A DNA stretch of 64,000 bases from Octopus sinensis (Eukaryota). The DNA lies in contig NC_043007.1 of the NCBI RefSeq assembly GCF_006345805.1, positions 63,054,001-63,118,000 of the forward strand, given 5' to 3'. Positions 35,247 to 63,152 of this stretch are shown here, in pieces. The notes below the pieces were generated by a model, which ran no database searches, was not told where the DNA came from, and was given only the letters and a program-made list of their open reading frames with translations. A program made the position numbers and the translations under genes. Within the stretch, counting starts at the first letter, position 1. Each line of letters begins with the position of its first letter.

Positions 35247-36518
35247 TTAGGTTGTCTAGAAAGTTCATCCCAATTTTTTAAAGGAAAGAAAAAGGTCAAT
35301 AAATACTTGCCATTACATTTTTAATCAATCAAATATGAACCATTTTGTTGCACAATGTGTTTCCATCTTTCCTTTAGCTTGAAAATATCCCCTTCCCAGA
35401 ATTGAGATGGTTTCATGACAAAGAATTTGTCAAGGTATCTTTTTATGTCATCCAAGGAATTGAAATTTTTACCATTAAGACTATTCTGCAGAGACCTGAA
35501 TAAGTGGAAATCCATCTGGTGAATATGGAGGGGGGGGGGTAACACATCCCAGCCGAGCTGCAGCAATTTTTGTCTGGTTCCCAAAGAAACGTACAGTCTT
35601 GCATTATCATGTTGGAAAACTACATCCTTCCTGTTGGCCAATTCTGGGCATTTCTCTTGAATAGCTGCTTTTAACACGTCCAATTGTGTGCAGTATTTCT
35701 CAGAATTAATTGTCTGGTTACTTGGGAGAAGCTCATAGTACAGAATTCCTTTCCAATCCCACCAGACACAAAGCAAAACATTTTTAGGGTGAAGACCAGC
35801 TTTTGAGGTGGCTAAGGGTGGCTCGTGTCGCTTACTCCAGGATCGCTTTCCCTGAGCATTTCAGTCGATAATCCATTTCTCATCACCTGTCACAATTTGC
35901 TTTAAAAAAGGCGCGTTTTCATTCCGTTTATAAAGGGAATCACAGATGGAAATGCGATCCAAAAGGTTCTTCTCACTCAACTCATGTCGCACCCAAACAT
36001 CGTAGCAATTTGTGTACCCAAGATTTACCAGGTGTGCATGAACGACGGATTTTGATAAATTGAGGCTTTCTACCAATTCTCGGGTTGTGCAATGTGGGTT
36101 ATTCTCAATTAATTACTTCATTTGATCATCATCTGTAGTGGATGGTCTGCCTGATGGCTCTTTATCAATAAGGCTACAATCTCCAGTTCAGAACCTTGCA
36201 AACCACTTCCGTACAGTTCTTTCAGATAAAGAAATATCACTGTAAACTGCGCATATTTATTTGGATGCTTGTGAGGCATTTTTCCCTTTATGGAAAAAGA
36301 AAAGCATCAAGTGCCAAAAATGAACTTTCTTATCTTCCATTTTAAAGGGTTACAGAATTAACACAGGATATAGAAACATAAACATAAACGAAAAGATAGC
36401 TTAAACTGTGCTCTAAATGGAGGTGTAGTCAAATCCTATTTTATGGACTCAACCATGTTCTAAAATAAGTCAAAAGGTAAGCTACTATAAATCAACATGA
36501 ACTTTCCAAACAACCCAA
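35247..36518 (-). mobile_element. Full-length mariner DNA transposon (~1.27 kb), inactive
   Basis: TA-TTAGGTTGTCTAGAAAGTTCAT ... ATGAACTTTCCAAACAACCCAA-TA: TIRs plus TA target duplication. Confidence 0.93.
35321..36340 (-). pseudogene. Mariner transposase pseudogene
   Basis: Starts MEDKKVHF; contains WVRHEL, IVTGDEKWI, LCVWWDWKG, QHDNAR and DFHLFRSLQN, with stops and frameshifts. Confidence 0.9.
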
Positions 36519-36533
36519 TATATATATTTATAC

Positions 36534-36591
<58 letters not shown>

Positions 36592-36770
36592 TATAGTTAC
36601 AAATTGAGATAGGGGTTGTAAATGCAACCCTCCATGGGATAACATATATCCAATATACTGCTAGTGAAGTACCCAACAAAGTTAATACATAAATGTTAAG
36701 AATTGCGATGCAATTAATTCATTTACTGTATTATATGGGCAAAAGTAAAATGTTTTACCACAAATTCATA

Positions 36771-36941
36771 ATACAAAATAAGAAAATGGAGAAATACATC
36801 CAAATCAAATATGAATTACCAGATAATACCCAATCACATACTTTATTAAACCACCACATGGTGGTTTAATAAAGTATGTGATTGGGTATTATCTGGTAAT
36901 TGATATTTGATTTGGATGTATTTCTCCATTTTCTTATTTTG

Positions 36942-36944
<3 letters not shown>
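36771..36944. repeat. Near-perfect palindrome, ~86-bp arms and 2-nt centre
   Basis: ATACAAAATAAGAAAATGGAG...AAACCACCA-ca-TGGTGGTTT...CTCCATTTTCTTATTTTGTAT. Confidence 0.95.
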
Positions 36945-36979
<35 letters not shown>

Positions 36980-37068
36980 GTTCAAATTTACAGAAAGCAA
37001 AAAAAATAAGACACATCAGAGAACAACAAACAAGTGTATTAGTTTGACACTCAGGAAGAATGGAAAAG

Positions 37069-37105
37069 TTTTTGACATTTTGAGCCTATGCTCTTTGACA
37101 GAAAG
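37069..37105 (-). ncRNA. CpG-decayed minimal hammerhead-like motif (same family as 46540-46577)
   Basis: The minus strand reads CTTT-CTGTCAA-A-GAGC-ATAG-GCTC-AAAATGTC-AAAA. Flanks 36985-37068 are homologous to 46445-46540. Confidence 0.5.
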
Positions 37106-37227
37106 GGCTGAGATAAAAAAAAAAATGGAGAGAGAGAGCAAAGAAAAACAAGAGAGGAAAAAAAAAGTAAGGATTAATGGTTCCACATGATAAAATGTAT
37201 ATATATAAATATACGTATATATATATG

Positions 37228-37426
37228 CAGTAGTACCTTGGTTTCGAACAACTCTGATTACGAATAAGTTGTGTTTTTCATATATATAGATATATATAAA
37301 GCATGATTTATTCATGATCAGAGGCATTCCTACACTGAGATAGTGTATTAAATGAATATAAGAAAGACAGGAGATAAAGCACGATTTCTTCGTGATCAGA
37401 CTTGTTCGAAAACTGAGATGCTACTG
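37228..37426. mobile_element. Tc1/pogo-type MITE (related copy at ~61368-61546)
   Basis: CAGTAGTACCTTGGTTTCGAACAA ... TTGTTCGAAAACTGAGATGCTACTG inverted ends in TA-rich context. Confidence 0.7.
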
Positions 37427-37454
37427 AATATATATATATATATACACACACATA

Positions 37455-37646
37455 TATAACAAAGCAGGAAAGTGAAGATTTTTGGTATTATTTATTCTCC
37501 ATTACTTGTGTTTCATTTGCTATTAATAATTACAAAGATTTACATGTGTATCTAACATGTAAATCTTTGTAATTCCTATTAGCAAATGAAATGTTTAATG
37601 GAGAATAAATAATACCAAAAAATTTTCATTTTCTTGTTTTCTTATA
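37455..37646. repeat. Imperfect palindrome (~93-bp arms) containing the 3' half of a hammerhead-like motif
   Basis: TTTTTGGTATTATTTATTCTCCATTA pairs with TAATGGAGAATAAATAATACCAAAAA. The minus arm reads GAAAC-ACAA-GTA. Confidence 0.85.
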
Positions 37647-38140
37647 CAATACCTCTGGTAATAATATTTCCATAATTCTCAGTTTTAATATGCAGTAGCT
37701 ATAGATACTTATTGATTATAATAATGGACTAACCAACATGCTTCAAGAGGAAACAGCTGGGATTTTCTCTACCTATATTATGTGTCTATGTGTGTATATA
37801 TATATATATATATGTATGTATAAATGTATATATATATGTGTCTCTGTATATATGTATGTATATATATATGTGTGTGTGTGTATATATATGAGGGAATATT
37901 ACTCCAAACTTACAGGGAAAAATTTAATTTAGAAATACTAAATCAAATTTCACAAAATATATATATATATATATATAAATTAGAAAAAAAACACCTTTTA
38001 TCAATTCAGCAATAAAAAAAATTAAATTATACTATTTAGAAAAAATTATATCTTATAGAAAAATTAAATATAAGATAAAACGTATACCAATGATTAAGTA
38101 ATGTGCAAAATAATAAATAAAACGTATATATTTGGTAAAA

Positions 38141-38223
38141 TAACTACACATGTTTCGAGGCTATATTTAAGAAATGATAACAGTAAAATCAATTCAATAT
38201 GAATATAGCCACTCTTCAGGTTA
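38141..38223 (-). ncRNA. Type I hammerhead ribozyme motif
   Basis: Minus strand: TAAC-CTGAAGA-GtGGCTATATT...AATATAGCCtC-GAAAC-ATGT-GTA-GTTA. Stem I is TAAC/GTTA, stem II is long, and the cleavage triplet is GUA. Confidence 0.75.
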
Positions 38224-38674
38224 AAGATAAAAACAAAAATAATTAATTAAATAAAATAACAAACATACATATATAATCTTGTAAAATACAAAATATCTTA
38301 AATATATTCTTGTGTAAATATGAAATAGGATAAAGAGGTATAAATATTTATTATTATCTATAAAAATAAAATTTTAACATATATAAGAAAAGAATAATAA
38401 ACTATAATACATCATTACTAGAAAATACAATTAATTAAATTATTTAAAACAGATATATATATATATATATAAAATATAAAATAAACTAAAATACTATAAT
38501 TTAATCTATATACATTAAATTAAATTATTTATTTATTTAATAAACATCTAAATTAAATCTTATTCTCATTAAGTAATGTATACTAAAAAAACTTCATGTT
38601 AAGTAATATACATAATGCTAGTACAAGCTATAAATATTAGAATTAAAAATAGAAAATGGTTCAAATACATACAC

Positions 38675-38755
38675 ACCTGAAGAGTGGCTATATTTATATT
38701 GAATTGGTTTTACTGTTATCATTTCTTAAATATAGCCACGAAACACGTGTAGTTA
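38675..38755 (+). ncRNA. Type I hammerhead ribozyme motif
   Basis: CTGAAGA (38677), GTGGCTATATTTA...TAAATATAGCCAC (13-bp stem II), GAAAC, palindromic ACGT loop, GTA. Predicted cut after 38751; stem I is only 2 bp in this copy. Confidence 0.75.
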
Positions 38756-38929
38756 TTTTACCAAATATATACGTTTTATTTATTATTTTGCACATTACTT
38801 AATCATTGGTATATGTTTTATCTTATATTTAATTTTTCGATAAGATATGATTTTTTCTAAATGGTATAATTTAATTTTTTCATTGTTGAATTGATAAAAG
38901 GTGGGTTTTTTTCTAATTTATATCTGTAT

Positions 38930-39670
38930 ATATATATAAGGCAAGATGTGTGTGTGTGTACATGATTGTAGTTTATGCACATCCACAAATTAGCACGCAT
39001 GTCACTCAAATTTTAGGAGGACATTCGTCAACATCCTATCTGGGTTTTGTCAACATATTTTTCCCAAGGCACCCACAGATAGTGGTAAAATTCTATTTTC
39101 AGCTATAGCTTTTAGTGGTAAAAATCTATTTCAGCCATAGCTTTTTGACGGCATCTAACAAAAGAAAACAACAAGATAAAGAAAAGTGGAAGAGGGGCAG
39201 AGAGTTTCACAGGAAAGACAAAGTGAGAGAGGGAGAGAGAGAGAGAGAAAGTAAGTGACGGCGTTCATAAAAATCTATTTTCAGCCATAGCTTTTTGACA
39301 GCATCTAACAAAAAAAAAATAAGATAAAGAAAACAAAAAAAAAGGGAAAGGCAAAGTGAGAGAAGGAGAGAGAGAAAGTGACGACGTTCATAAAAAATAA
39401 AATGTAAAATGTTTTGTTTTTTCTTAAACACGAAATATAGTGTTCAAATTCAGGATGTTTTTGAAAGACTATATTTTATAATCATAGTATATATACTTTC
39501 TCACACAACAATTACAATATATTTATTTTAGATCGTTCATCTTTCTCCCCCTCTCTCTCTCACACACACACATTACCTTGGGTGCGAAAGAGTTTTGTGC
39601 TAATTGCATGCTAATTTGTGGACGTGCATAAATTACAATCACGCACACACACACATCATGCCTTTTATAG
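38930..39670. mobile_element. Non-autonomous element with ~65-bp inverted ends (Helitron-like 5' end sequence) and an internal tandem duplication
   Basis: TGATTGTAGTTTATGCACATCCACAAATTAGCA (38963) versus TGCTAATTTGTGGACGTGCATAAATTACAATCA (39609). AAAATCTATTTTCAGCCATAGCTTTTTGAC is repeated internally. Confidence 0.6.
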
Positions 39671-39674
39671 ATAT

Positions 39675-39711
39675 GATATATATCTGTATGTGTATATGTA
39701 CATATGTATAT

Positions 39712-39768
<57 letters not shown>

Positions 39769-39914
39769 ATATTTATATATGTAAGTGTATATATATGTGT
39801 GTGTGTATATATATATTATATATATATGTATGTGTATATATATGTGTGTGTATATATATGTATGTATATATATATGTACATGTGTATACATATATATATA
39901 TGTGTGTGTGTGTG

Positions 39915-39993
<79 letters not shown>

Positions 39994-40022
39994 TTCCATG
40001 TATATGCCTGTATATATATATA
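39675..40022. repeat. Compound (TA)n/(TG)n microsatellite
   Basis: Directly visible. Confidence 0.95.
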
Positions 40023-40414
40023 GCCAGAGACTTTGAGATTTCAATGATGTGTTTGTTTACTTTTAAAATGACATTGTAGGGTAGGTGTGAGAGGCTGGAT
40101 CTGACCAGTTTGAACTTGCAACAGGTAGAATATTTGGGCTAGATATGGCCAGGTTGAATGCTAAAGTGTTAGGCATGTAATGTGTATGGTGGATGAGAGT
40201 TGGCTAAAGAAGTACCCAGCAAACCAGGTGGAAAAATCATGAAGAAATGGTGACAGCTCATCTCTAAGAGCTCGAACTTACAAAAAAAATGACGAGGGAC
40301 TGCATTAAATAATGTGACACTATGCTAAAGAAGACCTGTTCCAACTCATGCAAACATAGAAAAACAGACCAAAATAGATGGTCATTCCTGAAAAATGACA
40401 CAATATTTTACTAC

Positions 40415-40532
40415 CCTCATCTCTTTAAGACTTCTCAAAACTGCTTGAAGATGTCTTAGAAATACTGTTATACCATTTACATTCACAGGTATTTTGGTCA
40501 GAGATTCTTTCTTACAGTAAATATTAGATTTT
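40415..40532 (-). CDS. Weak candidate exon of an unidentified minus-strand gene
   Basis: ctgtgatag|A AAA...AGG|gtagta; encodes KSNIYCKKESLTKIPVNVNGITVFLRHLQAVLRSLKEMR. No recognised homology. Confidence 0.2.
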
Positions 40533-41103
40533 CTATCACAGAATGAGGACAATACCAACAAATAAGCAAGTAGTGAATGATTCATTAATAAATAGGAATA
40601 GTAACTAGTTGAGGAAGATTAGCTAGAAAAATTTCAGGTTGTTCAGCATATGTTCAAATAGTGGAACCACAAAATTGTTAGAGAGTCAAAAAATGTCTTC
40701 TGGAATTTGTTCTGAAGTCATTTCTATTGAGTTTAACTTCACATTTTTTTCCCTTCAGAATCAGTAAAATAAAATACCAGTCAAGTACTTGGTTCAGTTT
40801 AATCAACTTCTCCCAGGAAAATATCTGGCCTTGTATCTATGTAAGGAAATGTTGTTGTAAGTGGTGGTGGTGGCAGCAGCAGCGACAGTGGTGGTGGTGG
40901 TGGTGCTACTGTTGTTATGGTATTACTGTAGCAGAAAGATTTGAATGCTGGATTAAACAGTTTGTGTCCATACATATTAAGGCTGACTTTGACTTTTACA
41001 TCTCTGGATTTAATGAAATCAGTACTAGTCAAGTATTGAGAGTGCAGAAGCAATAAATTCAACTCTATTCTTCCCCACAAAATGTGTGACTATGTGCCTT
41101 AGA

Positions 41104-48030: not shown

Positions 48031-48494
48031 TACAACTGTTCTTATTTTTATACTCTACATCCTGTTTAGTTCCATTTCAAGATCCTTTTGATAGCTTTTT
48101 AGCTCCTTTCCTGGAGACATTCTGGTTATAAAGGATCAAGATGCCTGAGAACAAAGGTTCTTGTAGCTGCATCTAACCAGTTTGCCTTGGTCTCCATGTT
48201 AGTCTAGACAAGAATATTCTAGATTATTATACCTATATCATGGTATTATATCACGTTTGATATAGGTTCATACTTCTTCTCAGTTTTCATGTTGAAGAGG
48301 CAGCATATTGCCCAATTGGCATAGCTCTTGACTAAGTCACATCTGTGTACACTGATTCTGTAAAGATTGGACAGCCAGAAATGATGTGATAAATTCATTT
48401 ATTATTGCTGCTGCTGCTGCTGCTGCTGTTGTTGTTGTTGTTATAATTATGCTTTGCCTATGCTTTAATTCATATCTAAATTGCTCCCCTCCTC

Positions 48495-50076
48495 CCCACA
48501 TCTCCTTCCCAGTTTTCAGAGTTGGCACTGTCAATGTTGGTACATTGAAAGGTAGGTCTAGTGAGATTGTAGAGATGCTTGAGAGAAGACGGGTTGATGT
48601 ATGCTGCATACAAGAGGTAAGATGGAGAGGTGCTTCAGCTAGGGTCCTCACAGGCAAGGCACATAGGTACAAAGTCTTCTGGCAAGGTAACATGGATGGT
48701 GTAGGGGGTGTAGGCATTCTCCTTGCGGAGAAATGGGTGGATAAGGTCATAGAGGTTATCAGGATTTGCGATAGAGTGCTCAAGCTCAGGTTGGTCCTAC
48801 AGAGTGGCACAGCTACGATTATCTCCGCCTATGCCCCACAAGCGGGACTACCAAATGATCAGAAGGACCACTTTTATGATACCCTTCTACAGGCTACCTC
48901 AAACACTAGTGGCAAGGACCTCATCTTTGTGGGTGGAGACTTTAATGGGCATATTGGGCGGGAATCGGGTATCTTCACTGGGGTACATGGTGGCCATGGT
49001 ATTGGCACCAGAAATGATGAGGGAACTAGACTACTGGAATTCTGTGATGCATGTAACCTTTTAATCTGCAACACTAAATTCAGGAAGCCTGACTGCCACC
49101 TTATAACCTATCAGTCAGGAGACTCCGCTAGCCAAATAGACTTCATCCTCACCATACAGCGGAAGGCAGGGTCGCTCTTAAATACAAAGACCCTCCCAGG
49201 TGAAGAATGTATCCCTCAGCATAGGCTAATCATCAGTGACTTTAAGCTTGAGGCCAGAAGGACTCCAAGAAACAAACCAATCCAGAAAAGAAGGATTTGG
49301 AAGCTAAAGAACCCTTCACATGGTCAGAGATTTAGGGACATCCTCATCAAGAAATTTGATGAGAGGGAGGAGGAGCTTCGGACGTCGGACATAGAAGGTA
49401 GCTGGGAATTCCTATGGGACAGCTTGCTGAGTGCCACAGACCAAGTCTGTGGATGGTGCAAAGTCCCTTCCAGACCTAGAGTTACATGGTGGTGGAATAG
49501 TGCAGTAGACAAAGCCATTAGTGCAAAGAGACGGGCCTGGAATGCCTGGAGGGATGGGGGTAGCCTGGGCAAAGTTCAGAAAGCTCCTACCCCTACCGGC
49601 GACAAAGGGTCTCTCGCTCAGAGTGAAAGGTAGATTGTATGATATGTGTGCGAACTGCCATGCTTCACGGTAGTGAAACATGGGCTGTGACTGCAGAGGA
49701 CATGCGTAGACTTGAAAGAAATGAAGCTAGCATGATCCGCTGGATGTGTAATGTCAGTGTGCATGCACGACAGAGTGTAAGCACCCTGAGAGAAATGCTG
49801 GACATAAGAAGCATCATATGTGGTGTGCAAGAGTGACGCTTGCGATAGTTTGGTCATGTACTGTGGATGGATGAGGAGAGATGTGTGAAGAAGTGCCACT
49901 CCCAAACAGTTGAAGGCATCAGGGGTAGAGGTAGACCCAGGAAGACATGGGATGAGGTAGTCAAGCATGACCTCAGAGCGTTGAGCCTCACTGAGGCAAT
50001 GGCGAAGGACCGAGATCTCTGGAGATATGCTGTGACTGCAAAGACCCGGGCTGCTTCATGCACCAGTTCCGCATAG
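48495..50076 (+). mobile_element. Young RTE LINE with open APE endonuclease frame and deleted RT core
   Basis: RVGTVNVGTL, CCIQEVRW, SAYAPQ, GGDFNGHIG, SQIDFIL and PQHRLI lie in one open frame. At ~49560 the sequence jumps to WAKFR...RLYDMCVRTAMLHGSETW...RGRPRKTW. Confidence 0.93.
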
Positions 50077-61883: not shown

Positions 61884-63152
61884 CAGTGGGGGGAAATAAA
61901 TATTCGTACATGTCAAAATTCTTTAGTTAATATCTAATGAACAATGAACATAAATGGGATATACCAATACTATATATGCATACACCTGCATAAACTAAGA
62001 ATATGCAAAAGAAACTAATAAATTATAGTAACTAAGGAATTTATATACAGTTATAAATATTTAGGTGTGAAAAAAGTATTTGTACAGAATAAATTTATGA
62101 TTTTCTATGCCACAAAATACTGTTAAAATATTTTTTTTACTAGAACTTTCTCGTTTGTTCAAATAATCTTATGTCATTTTTAAGTGTCAAAACTCTAGCT
62201 TCTTCATTCAGCATTGAGACAACATAAAGTTGTATCGTAATAAAGGCAAAAAGTAAAGAACTCACAAATTCAGTGAAAAACTTAATTATTGAACAGTGGA
62301 AAGCAGATAAAAGTTACAGGAAAATATCAGAGACCCTTTGTATTCTATTTTCTACCATATCTTCATATATTCAAAGTTATAAAATAATCGGGAACTGTTG
62401 AAAACAGAATGAGATCCGGTGCACCACGCAAGATTTCCCCTAGATCTTTAAGAAGAATGAAGCGAAGAATTGGAAAAAATGCAATGATCACCAGAAAGGA
62501 GTTGTAAGAAGATTTGTTAGCTTCAGGGACTAGTGTTACACTATGAACAATCAGCAATGAACTTCATAGGAATGAACTGAAATCACGCTCTCCTAGAAAA
62601 ACTTCGCTGTTGACTAAAAGGCATAGAGATGCCCATTTAAAATTTGTTTATGAACATAAAGATAAATCTGAAACATTCTGAGAAAATGTTCTATGGACAG
62701 ACGAGTCGAAAATTGAATTGTTTAGACAAAATTCGCGTAGCCATGTTTGGAGGAAAGATGGTACAGCCTATTTGCCGCAAAACACAATTCCTACTGTAAA
62801 GTTTGGAGGTGGCAACATCATGGTGTGGGAGTGTTTCTCTGCAAATGGTACTGGCAATTTACATGTGATAGATGGTAGAATGAATGCAGAGATGTACCAA
62901 AATATTTTGAACAATGATTTATGGGACTCTGTAGAAAAGCCCCAGCTTTGTGAAGGGTGGGTTTTACAACAGGATAACGATCCTAAGCAAACGGCAAAAT
63001 CTACCAAAAAATGGATTGTCAATCACAATATAAAATTATTAGAATGGCCAAGCCAGTCACCTGACTTGAACCCCATTGAAAATTTGTGGCAATATTTGAA
63101 AATTAAAATTCATTCAAGAGCCCCCCACCATGCATTGCAGATTTGAAGAAAA
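61884..63152 (+). mobile_element. Tc1-like transposon with pseudogenised transposase, truncated by the assembly gap
   Basis: TA-CAGTGGGGGGAAATAAATATTCG end; [31 protein letters not shown] and [15 protein letters not shown] motifs; in-frame stops upstream. Confidence 0.92.

What the first reader, a model, noticed from the sequence alone, without database searches (positions are those of the whole stretch)
37975..38924. Outward-facing inverted pair of complete hammerhead ribozyme motifs in a non-coding fold-back element
Seen: two ~245-bp inverted arms, each starting with a full type I hammerhead core. The core is CUGAAGA, a long stem II (13 bp in the + copy) around an AT-rich loop, GAAAC, a 4-nt loop (palindromic ACGU in the + copy, AUGU in the - copy) and a GUA cleavage triplet. 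Stem I is TAAC/GTTA in the - copy. Both arms end in (TA)n and no ORF is present. Established: minimal type I hammerheads with a weak palindromic stem III mark the pLTRs of Penelope-like elements and retrozymes and are thought to cleave as dimers; Penelope-like insertions often carry an inverted pLTR. Inference: this is a non-autonomous Penelope-like or retrozyme-like element that would look like a plain MITE to repeat finders. A transcript from either strand would carry one self-cleaving motif and could fold back into long dsRNA.
Basis: partly seen in the sequence, partly recalled or inferred. Interest (0 to 1): 0.8.

Follow-up and report, generated by a model that had tools for sequence, protein, structure and literature searches.

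The report
Truncated Penelope retrotransposon with inverted arm
This is an ordinary broken copy of a Penelope-like jumping gene inserted head-to-head with a second copy of its own end, but most copies of its family stop right at the predicted ribozyme cut site, likely a fossil record that the ribozyme cut the RNA in living germ cells.

Summary
Both hammerhead cores and the 95% inverted repeat are real, but this is not a separate non-coding fold-back element. The whole stretch 38678-37888 (minus strand), the 'spacer' included, is one 5'-truncated copy of an RT + GIY-YIG Penelope-like element (PLE) with Hydra-clade motifs; 38675-38924 is an inverted copy of its 3' end. This layout is published for PLEs and common here (18 pairs among 100 unselected matches). 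The plus ribozyme lacks most of stem I, and fold-back would bury both ribozymes, so the locus is likely inert. Stem I covaries among copies (A-U 35, G-C 24 of 63). The new result is family-wide: in two samples picked without regard to 5' ends, 63 of 99 and 70 of 80 copies end at or 3' of the predicted cut, with a roughly sixfold to tenfold drop in end rate just beyond it. A sister family shows a weaker gap plus intron-less (spliced) genomic copies; an unrelated hammerhead family shows no such drop. I read this as reverse transcription of ribozyme-cleaved RNA (about 0.65). The scan noted a similar but mild effect on another genome.

The parts
37888..38678 (-). Long arm: 5'-truncated PLE copy (3' part of the pLTR, beginning inside an intron-like region, through ribozyme, internal (TA)n and tail)
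   Evidence: Matches other copies end to end at 83-88%; maps to L064 6853-7692, downstream of that copy's RT and GIY-YIG pieces
38141..38223 (-). Type I hammerhead of the long arm: stem I 4 bp, core 38219-38213, stem II with one U-U mismatch, predicted cut after 38145
   Evidence: Sequence; covariation in family; cleavage not tested
37958..37977 (.). Internal (TA)n, the first of two 3' end points of the family
   Evidence: 26 of 47 single copies end here, 21 run on through the tail
37888..37957 (-). Optional 3' 'tail', about 65 nt; in tandem copies it is the start of the 5' UTR leading to the ORF
   Evidence: tail followed by ATG and ORF start in L241 and in sister copy L090
38675..38924 (+). 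Short inverted arm: second copy of the 3' end, without tail, ending in (TA)n (38925-38937)
   Evidence: 95% identical to the long arm; no tail
38675..38755 (+). Hammerhead of the short arm: intact core 38677-38683, 13-bp stem II, palindromic stem III, only 2 bp of stem I; predicted cut after 38751
38675..38678 (.). Head-to-head junction with 4-nt microhomology
   Evidence: Overlap of the two hits; 11 of 18 junctions overlap by 1-13 nt

Best explanation
The locus is a 5'-truncated insertion of a Penelope-like retrotransposon with Hydra-clade protein motifs, joined head-to-head to a second copy of its own 3' end, likely in one integration event into a (TA)n tract, and is likely inert today. Shown: family membership, link to RT and GIY-YIG coding sequence, microhomology junction, tail on one arm only. 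Inferred mechanism: the element protein nicks both strands of a TA-rich target, each 3' end primes cDNA at one of two start points 3' of the ribozyme, and the two cDNAs meet through microhomology. The ribozyme belongs to the parent's pLTR, where palindromic stem III would let two copies cut as a dimer. In this family it likely did cut: most copies stop at or just 3' of the predicted cut, as expected if RT ran off a cleaved 5' end and the cDNA was trimmed back to a microhomology. The window's two arms belong to the minority that read through the site, from uncut or re-joined RNA.
For: Coding link: GIY-YIG and RT pieces upstream of the same sequence in L061, L064, L081, L088, L089, L099; L064 has the same layout as the window with RT-EN between the two ribozymes. 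Motifs CxCx5C, CxxC, CxH in the family, DKT in the 748-aa sister frame, as Craig 2021 (PMC8557442, section 11) defines for Hydra. Layout: 18 head-to-head pairs among the first 100 of 3,750 matches (counted from coordinates); tail on exactly one arm in 12 of 13 hand-resolved pairs (expected 49%, p=0.0015) and 21 of 26 script-found pairs; 3 of the 12 carry the tail on the shorter arm. Ribozyme: pair 2.3/1.3 A-U 35, G-C 24, G-U 3, A-C 1 of 63; 0 of 500 shuffles reach the covariation score; core variants 3.8% vs 8.4% in flanks. Cut-site drop: 63 of 99 and 70 of 80 end at or 3' of cut+2; pooled end rate per nt 0.010, 0.035, 0.054 approaching the cut, then 0.009, 0.006, 0.004; best step at +2, 11 log-likelihood units better than at the base of stem II (+12) with AT content as covariate; ends exactly at the site occur in at least four sequence subfamilies and the drop holds for flank-joined copies alone (41 of 49).
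Against: No cleavage or RNA-end data: nothing was assayed. The densest positions are 7-14 nt 3' of the cut at TA microhomologies, not the cut itself. An unrelated hammerhead family shows no drop (28 of 30 read through), a 535-nt tandem family shows none clearly, and in the sister family the gap (28 of 78 end at -25..-5, 2 in -4..+40, 48 beyond) can also be explained by the GC-richer ribozyme. The stem I covariation is one or a few lineage events, and stem II shows almost none; the core figure is inflated for the 3' half by the selection pattern. No tree with published Hydra sequences was built. No intact ORF of this family was seen (longest open frame 236 aa among the closest hits, 150 of 13,066 candidates scored). 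About four of the 80 set-B 'ends' are internal rearrangements.
Confidence: 0.9

Rival explanations
1. One reading: a distinct non-autonomous Penelope- or retrozyme-like fold-back element that moves as a unit and uses its two ribozymes.
For: No ORF in the interval; 5 of 86 sites hold two whole outward-facing ribozymes; a 535-nt tandem hammerhead repeat of retrozyme type does exist in this genome.
Against: The spacer is parent-element sequence; junctions differ among all 18 pairs; no tandem ribozyme units in this family at 86 sites; fold-back buries the ribozyme; the sequence is unrelated to the tandem family.
Confidence: 0.04
2. The inverted arm arose by fold-back self-priming of one cDNA (or on an antisense template, as Arkhipova 2013 proposed), not by two primings.
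For: Short microhomologies at most junctions; arms of a pair belong to the same subfamily (9 of 10 pairs above the median similarity, two ranking first); PMC3846280 argues for self-priming from junction palindromes.
Against: The tail sits on the shorter arm only in 3 of 12 pairs (L038, L087, L088), which a copy of the primary cDNA cannot easily give; spliced genomic copies in the sister family show a sense, spliced RNA was the template; the lizard PLE protein cuts and extends both strands in vitro (PMC11167929).
Confidence: 0.3
3. The pile-up of 5' ends is caused by RT stalling at the folded ribozyme, or by TA microhomology just downstream, not by cleavage.
For: Stem II is the most stable predicted structure, 12-24 nt upstream of the cut (pairing 0.78-0.99 in five family copies); peaks fall at TA motifs; the 10 nt between cut and stem II are poorer in TA steps.
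Against: Best step is at +2, not +12; 15 ends within 2 nt of the cut against 4 in +3..+12; several start exactly at the first base after the cut with no TA before it; upstream regions are as TA-rich as -42..-21 yet lose ends at about half the rate, and at a sixth to a tenth of the rate just 3' of the cut; a family with an equally folded ribozyme shows no drop.
Confidence: 0.25
4. The pile-up marks a second transcription start or a short master copy that happens to begin at the cut site.
For: Any fixed RNA 5' end gives the same shape; starts do leave such clusters here (9 long copies begin at L064 6445-6457).
Against: It recurs in at least four subfamilies, excluding one master; coincidence with the scissile bond would be chance; the apparent start lies about 900 nt upstream.
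Confidence: 0.1

Closest known systems
Hydra clade of C-terminal EN+ PLEs (Craig et al. 2021, PMC8557442), e.g. Hydra-1_Obim, Penelope-13_HM
   Same: RT then GIY-YIG, DKT, CxCx5C linker, CxxC and CxH around conserved E and N, (TA)n targets, 3' type I hammerhead; Penelope-13_HM is listed with an inverted 5'-truncated copy carrying the ribozyme on both strands (supplement).
   Different: Not Hydra-1_Obim: its listed ribozyme has a 7-bp stem II and other sequence. Here the stem II region is 52-93 nt, the region from EN stop to ribozyme about 1.5 kb, the sister ORF has an Asn-rich insert, and the unit exceeds the usual 3 kb.
Minimal hammerheads of metazoan PLEs (Cervera and de la Pena 2014, PMC4209133)
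   Same: Short stem I, long stem II, palindromic stem III; that paper already reports dual motifs 100-700 bp apart on opposite strands.
   Different: Stem II (13 bp plus a long AT-rich extension) is longer than the 7-8 bp described; no statement on truncation at the cut site in the parts read.
Inverted pLTR with optional tail (PMC3846280; PMC8557442 Fig. 2 legend; PMC11167929)
   Same: Head-to-head arms, tail on one arm, tail = sequence between two RT start points.
   Different: Tail about 65 nt rather than 30-40; asymmetry is counted here.
R2 HDV-like ribozyme setting the 5' junction (Eickbush 2013, PMC3774820, abstract only)
   Same: [quoted passage not shown]
   Different: In R2 the cut makes the full-length 5' end; here it would yield short promoter-less copies.
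Animal non-LTR retrozymes (bioRxiv 10.64898/2026.07.22.740005)
   Same: Type I hammerhead related to PLE pLTRs, non-coding.
   Different: Defined by tandem units each with a ribozyme; this locus has none.

Membership tests
EN+ Penelope-like element | Single ORF with RT followed by GIY-YIG endonuclease | tested here: met
   Broken RT and EN pieces in order upstream of this sequence in family copies; 748-aa open frame in sister copy L090. Assigned by motifs and alignment; Pfam and PDB searches gave no relevant hit. Absent from the window copy itself.
EN+ Penelope-like element | pLTR in partial tandem, inverted 5'-truncated copy, optional tail | tested here: met
Hydra clade | CxCx5C linker; CxxC and CxH flanking conserved E and N; no CCHH | tested here: met
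   Family copies L078, L079 and alignment A2; absence of CCHH judged by eye
Hydra clade | DKT in place of DKG; RWK motif | tested here: inconclusive
   DKT in sister L090; KWK at the matching place upstream of a stop (read by eye); no family copy fetched covers this part
Hydra clade | Insertion into (TA)n | tested here: met
Hydra clade | Generally under 3 kb | tested here: not met
   EN stop to ribozyme alone about 1.5 kb; described as a tendency, not a rule
Hydra clade | Placement in the RT tree | not tested
   Published sequences were seen only in the paper's supplement and were not available to the tree tools
Type I hammerhead ribozyme | Conserved core and three stems with covariation | tested here: met
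   41 of 63 copies keep all 11 core bases; stem I covaries; other stem I pairs and stem III palindromes in other families
Type I hammerhead ribozyme | Self-cleavage | not testable with these tools
   Only the indirect 5'-end footprint
Non-LTR retrozyme | Tandem units each with a ribozyme, no coding parent in cis | tested here: not met
   No direct tandem of whole ribozymes at 86 sites; family carries RT-EN
MITE | Fixed terminal inverted repeats moving as a unit | tested here: not met
   Arm lengths and junctions differ at every site

The most novel reading that the evidence does not exclude
Thousands of insertions of this family record in vivo cleavage by a PLE hammerhead: RT used the ribozyme's 3' product as template and ran off at the cut, so the ribozyme turns most insertions into short promoter-less fragments and only uncut or re-ligated RNA gives long copies. 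With the spliced genomic copies of the sister family, this shows that sense, processed RNA is the PLE template, and makes the height of the 5'-end drop a genome-only read-out of ribozyme activity per family.
Probability: 0.65. Interest if true: 0.65.

Novelty: new member of a known kind. Interest (0 to 1): 0.45.

Why it matters
The locus itself is textbook PLE debris. Its family bears on an open question: Craig 2021 calls hammerhead function in EN+ PLEs 'still unclear', and Frangieh 2024 found cleavage dispensable in vitro and no RNA reads ending at the site. A sharp loss of copies beyond the predicted cut is the footprint expected if the ribozyme cuts in the germ line, can be measured in any assembly, and predicts which families should cleave in vitro. 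Spliced genomic copies in the sister family bear on why PLEs keep introns and argue against an antisense template.

Tried and rejected
Rfam scan of 36000-41000: 73 matches at E<=10, none a hammerhead, none at its gathering score. Pfam on 7 family fragments, the 748-aa sister frame and 3 homologues: nothing above cut-off; profile search of solved structures: only weak ribosomal-protein hits; homologue search gave 6 unnamed proteins at 33-44%. One search used a structure string shifted by one column and is void; one search replaces it. The first covariation count mis-parsed truncated copies and is replaced. Expression: no RNA holder listed; contigs of two possibly-RNA and two other runs hold family sequence but none spans this junction and contigs cannot show ends or strand; no conclusion drawn. 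Spliced copies of the window's own family: none found among 28 distinct leader hits; its donor site is GT in only one of the copies shown. Sister-family end mapping was distorted by references that were themselves inverted; one search used other references but collapsed identical copies (62 left), so only the counts near the cut are used. The idea that inverted sister pairs move as a unit was dropped: their junctions differ. Two further hammerhead families tested for the drop: none in one, unclear in the other. Host gene context was not resolved. Lunse et al. (RNA Biol, PLE hammerhead dimers) could not be read and may bear on novelty; Arkhipova 2003, 2006 and 2017 were not read; bioRxiv supplements are closed.

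Full report
Observation. The inverted repeat is real: 38016-38221 pairs with 38675-38880 at 96%, about 250 nt at 95% by BLAST. The plus copy starts 2 nt before the core and keeps 2 of 4 stem I pairs; the minus copy has a whole stem I but a mismatch in stem II and a changed palindrome. Rfam did not detect either.

What it is. The arm is a dispersed repeat in a 2.7-Gb animal genome (probably an octopus, a guess from size and repeats, not tested). An 18-mer near its 3' end has 3,750 exact matches and its reversed control none. The 'spacer' is the same repeat continuing upstream on the minus strand, and the minus copy runs about 65 nt past its (TA)n. Walking upstream in other copies reaches a GIY-YIG endonuclease and RT motifs; L064 has an inverted ribozyme piece, truncated RT, EN, a 3' region and a second ribozyme, the window's layout with coding sequence left in. 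L241 shows pLTR, tail and ORF start in tandem. The family EN has CxCx5C, CxxC and CxH, and a sister copy has a 748-aa open frame with DKT. Craig 2021 (PMC8557442; sections 11 and 15, passages, and supplement parts read) gives these as marks of the Hydra clade, which targets (TA)n, and lists Penelope-13_HM with an inverted copy carrying the ribozyme on both strands. Pfam and PDB searches did not confirm the domains, and no tree was built, so clade placement rests on motifs.

The inverted layout. Among 86 sites, 18 have a head-to-head junction, each at a different point, 11 with 1-13 nt overlap; 5 keep two whole ribozymes. Among the first 100 unselected matches, 18 pairs lie head-to-head (counted from coordinates). 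The tail is on exactly one arm in 12 of 13 hand-resolved pairs and on both in one, and in 21 of 26 script-found pairs, with 4 on neither and 1 on both (one row is a non-adjacent pairing), against 49% expected from single copies (21 of 47 with tail). PMC3846280 (passages) already describes the head-to-head arm and a tail on one arm; PMC11167929 (parts 1-2 of 4) shows two RT start points bounding the tail and extension of both target strands. Two primings fit best because 3 of 12 pairs carry the tail on the shorter arm; fold-back remains possible.

The ribozyme. In 63 copies (66 found; two near-duplicates and one truncated copy dropped) stem I pair 2.3/1.3 is A-U in 35, G-C in 24, G-U in 3 and unpaired in 1; core columns vary 3.8% against 8.4% in flanks and 8.6% in the loop. 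On 52 of these, 91% of cells pair and no shuffle of 500 reaches the covariation score, though the signal comes almost wholly from stem I and reflects few events. Other families in the genome use other stem I pairs and other palindromes in stem III. The palindrome pairs between two copies at -10.3 kcal/mol while the monomer hairpin costs +2.4, in line with the dimer model of PMC4209133 (parts 1-2 of 4), which also reports motif pairs on opposite strands 100-700 bp apart. At this locus any read-through RNA makes the antisense arm first and is predicted to bury 72-73 of 75 ribozyme bases, so the pair is likely inert.

The new result. I picked copies by a 20-mer starting 42 nt 3' of the predicted cut (first 100 listed of 186) and mapped where each stops: 63 of 99 distinct copies end at or 3' of cut+2. 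A second set picked by an 18-mer 134 nt 3' of the cut (80 scored of the first 83 listed) gave 70 of 80, about four of them internal rearrangements. Pooled end rates per base are 0.010, 0.035 and 0.054 in -42..-21, -20..-3 and -2..+2, then 0.009, 0.006 and 0.004 in +3..+12, +13..+68 and +69..+150; a step model with AT content as covariate puts the step at +2, 11 log-likelihood units better than +12 and 36 better than a no-step model. Ends at the exact base occur in at least four subfamilies. Against generality: the sister family (5,615 matches) has 28 of 78 ends at -25..-5, none at the cut, 2 in -4..+40 and 48 beyond (three tandem repeats of one pair counted once); another hammerhead family has 28 of 30 copies reading through, and a 535-nt tandem family shows no clear drop. 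I read the drop as run-off from cleaved RNA followed by trimming to a microhomology, as in R2 (PMC3774820, abstract), at about 0.65; RT stalling and a hidden start site are the rivals. RNA data were uninformative.

A second by-product. In the sister family a GT-AG intron of 1.15-1.8 kb lies between a short first exon and the ribozyme in four long copies (one with a changed donor), and 13 loci hold the exact spliced junction, starting near the apparent transcription start. PMC2377424 (passages) describes such an intron in Penelope and its retention; intron-less genomic copies imply a sense, spliced template.

Novelty. The element is a new family of a known clade, and the inverted ribozyme pair is published. 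I found no paper reporting PLE 5' ends piling at the hammerhead cut or intron-less PLE copies in searches or in passages of the retrozyme preprint and a review; the library lacks most subscription papers and one key paper was not held. Verdict: the finding as stated is ordinary; the family-level footprint is worth a genome-wide and bench test. Interest 0.45.

Noticed in passing
L091, L093, L096, L295 (unspliced); L024, L293, L316, L318, L321, L324, L326, L341, L344, L345, L352, L353, L355 (spliced): Sister PLE family has a GT-AG intron between a short first exon and the hammerhead; 13 loci are intron-less genomic copies. Three that reach the start carry G where the genome has C, possibly a copied cap (weak).
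   Followed up: partly
L064 6445-6457 (reference for L007, L025, L037, L045, L046, L063, L104, L113, L117): Nine long copies of the window's family begin within 13 nt, next to an initiator-like motif and a mostly mutated splice donor: likely the pLTR transcription start, about 900 nt upstream of the ribozyme.
   Followed up: partly
L362-L391; G000:C1:95539413-95548663: A 535-nt tandem repeat with a type I hammerhead in each unit (1,849 pattern matches), often head-to-head like a PLE insertion: a retrozyme-like family.
   Followed up: partly
L090 4548-6791 (-): Sister family copy with a 748-aa open RT-EN frame and a long Asn-rich insert between RT and EN; this family looks younger and has many outward-facing pairs of whole ribozymes.
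   Followed up: partly
position 38751; L088, L089, L271, L273: The commonest subfamily in the laid contigs has a GUC cut triplet and a longer stem II region, not the window's GUA.
   Followed up: partly
L392-L421; L012:2214, L088:3181, L113:524, L226:346: Several further hammerhead families with other stem I pairs and stem III palindromes; their parent elements were not identified.
   Followed up: partly
window 36771-36944 and 37482-37618: Two short near-perfect hairpins (86-nt arms, 99%; and about 65-nt arms) close to the element; possibly other fold-back insertions.
   Followed up: no
window 14851-15231 (+): Exon with a VASP tetramerisation domain (Ena/VASP gene end), 23 kb from the element.
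   Followed up: no
window 35321-35860 (-), 48356-49633 (+), 62682-63146 (+): Mariner-type transposase, LINE endonuclease and DDE transposase remnants.
   Followed up: no
G000:C20:32864022-32958164 (L070-L072, L074): Four near-identical RT-EN copies of the family within 110 kb of the contig end.
   Followed up: no
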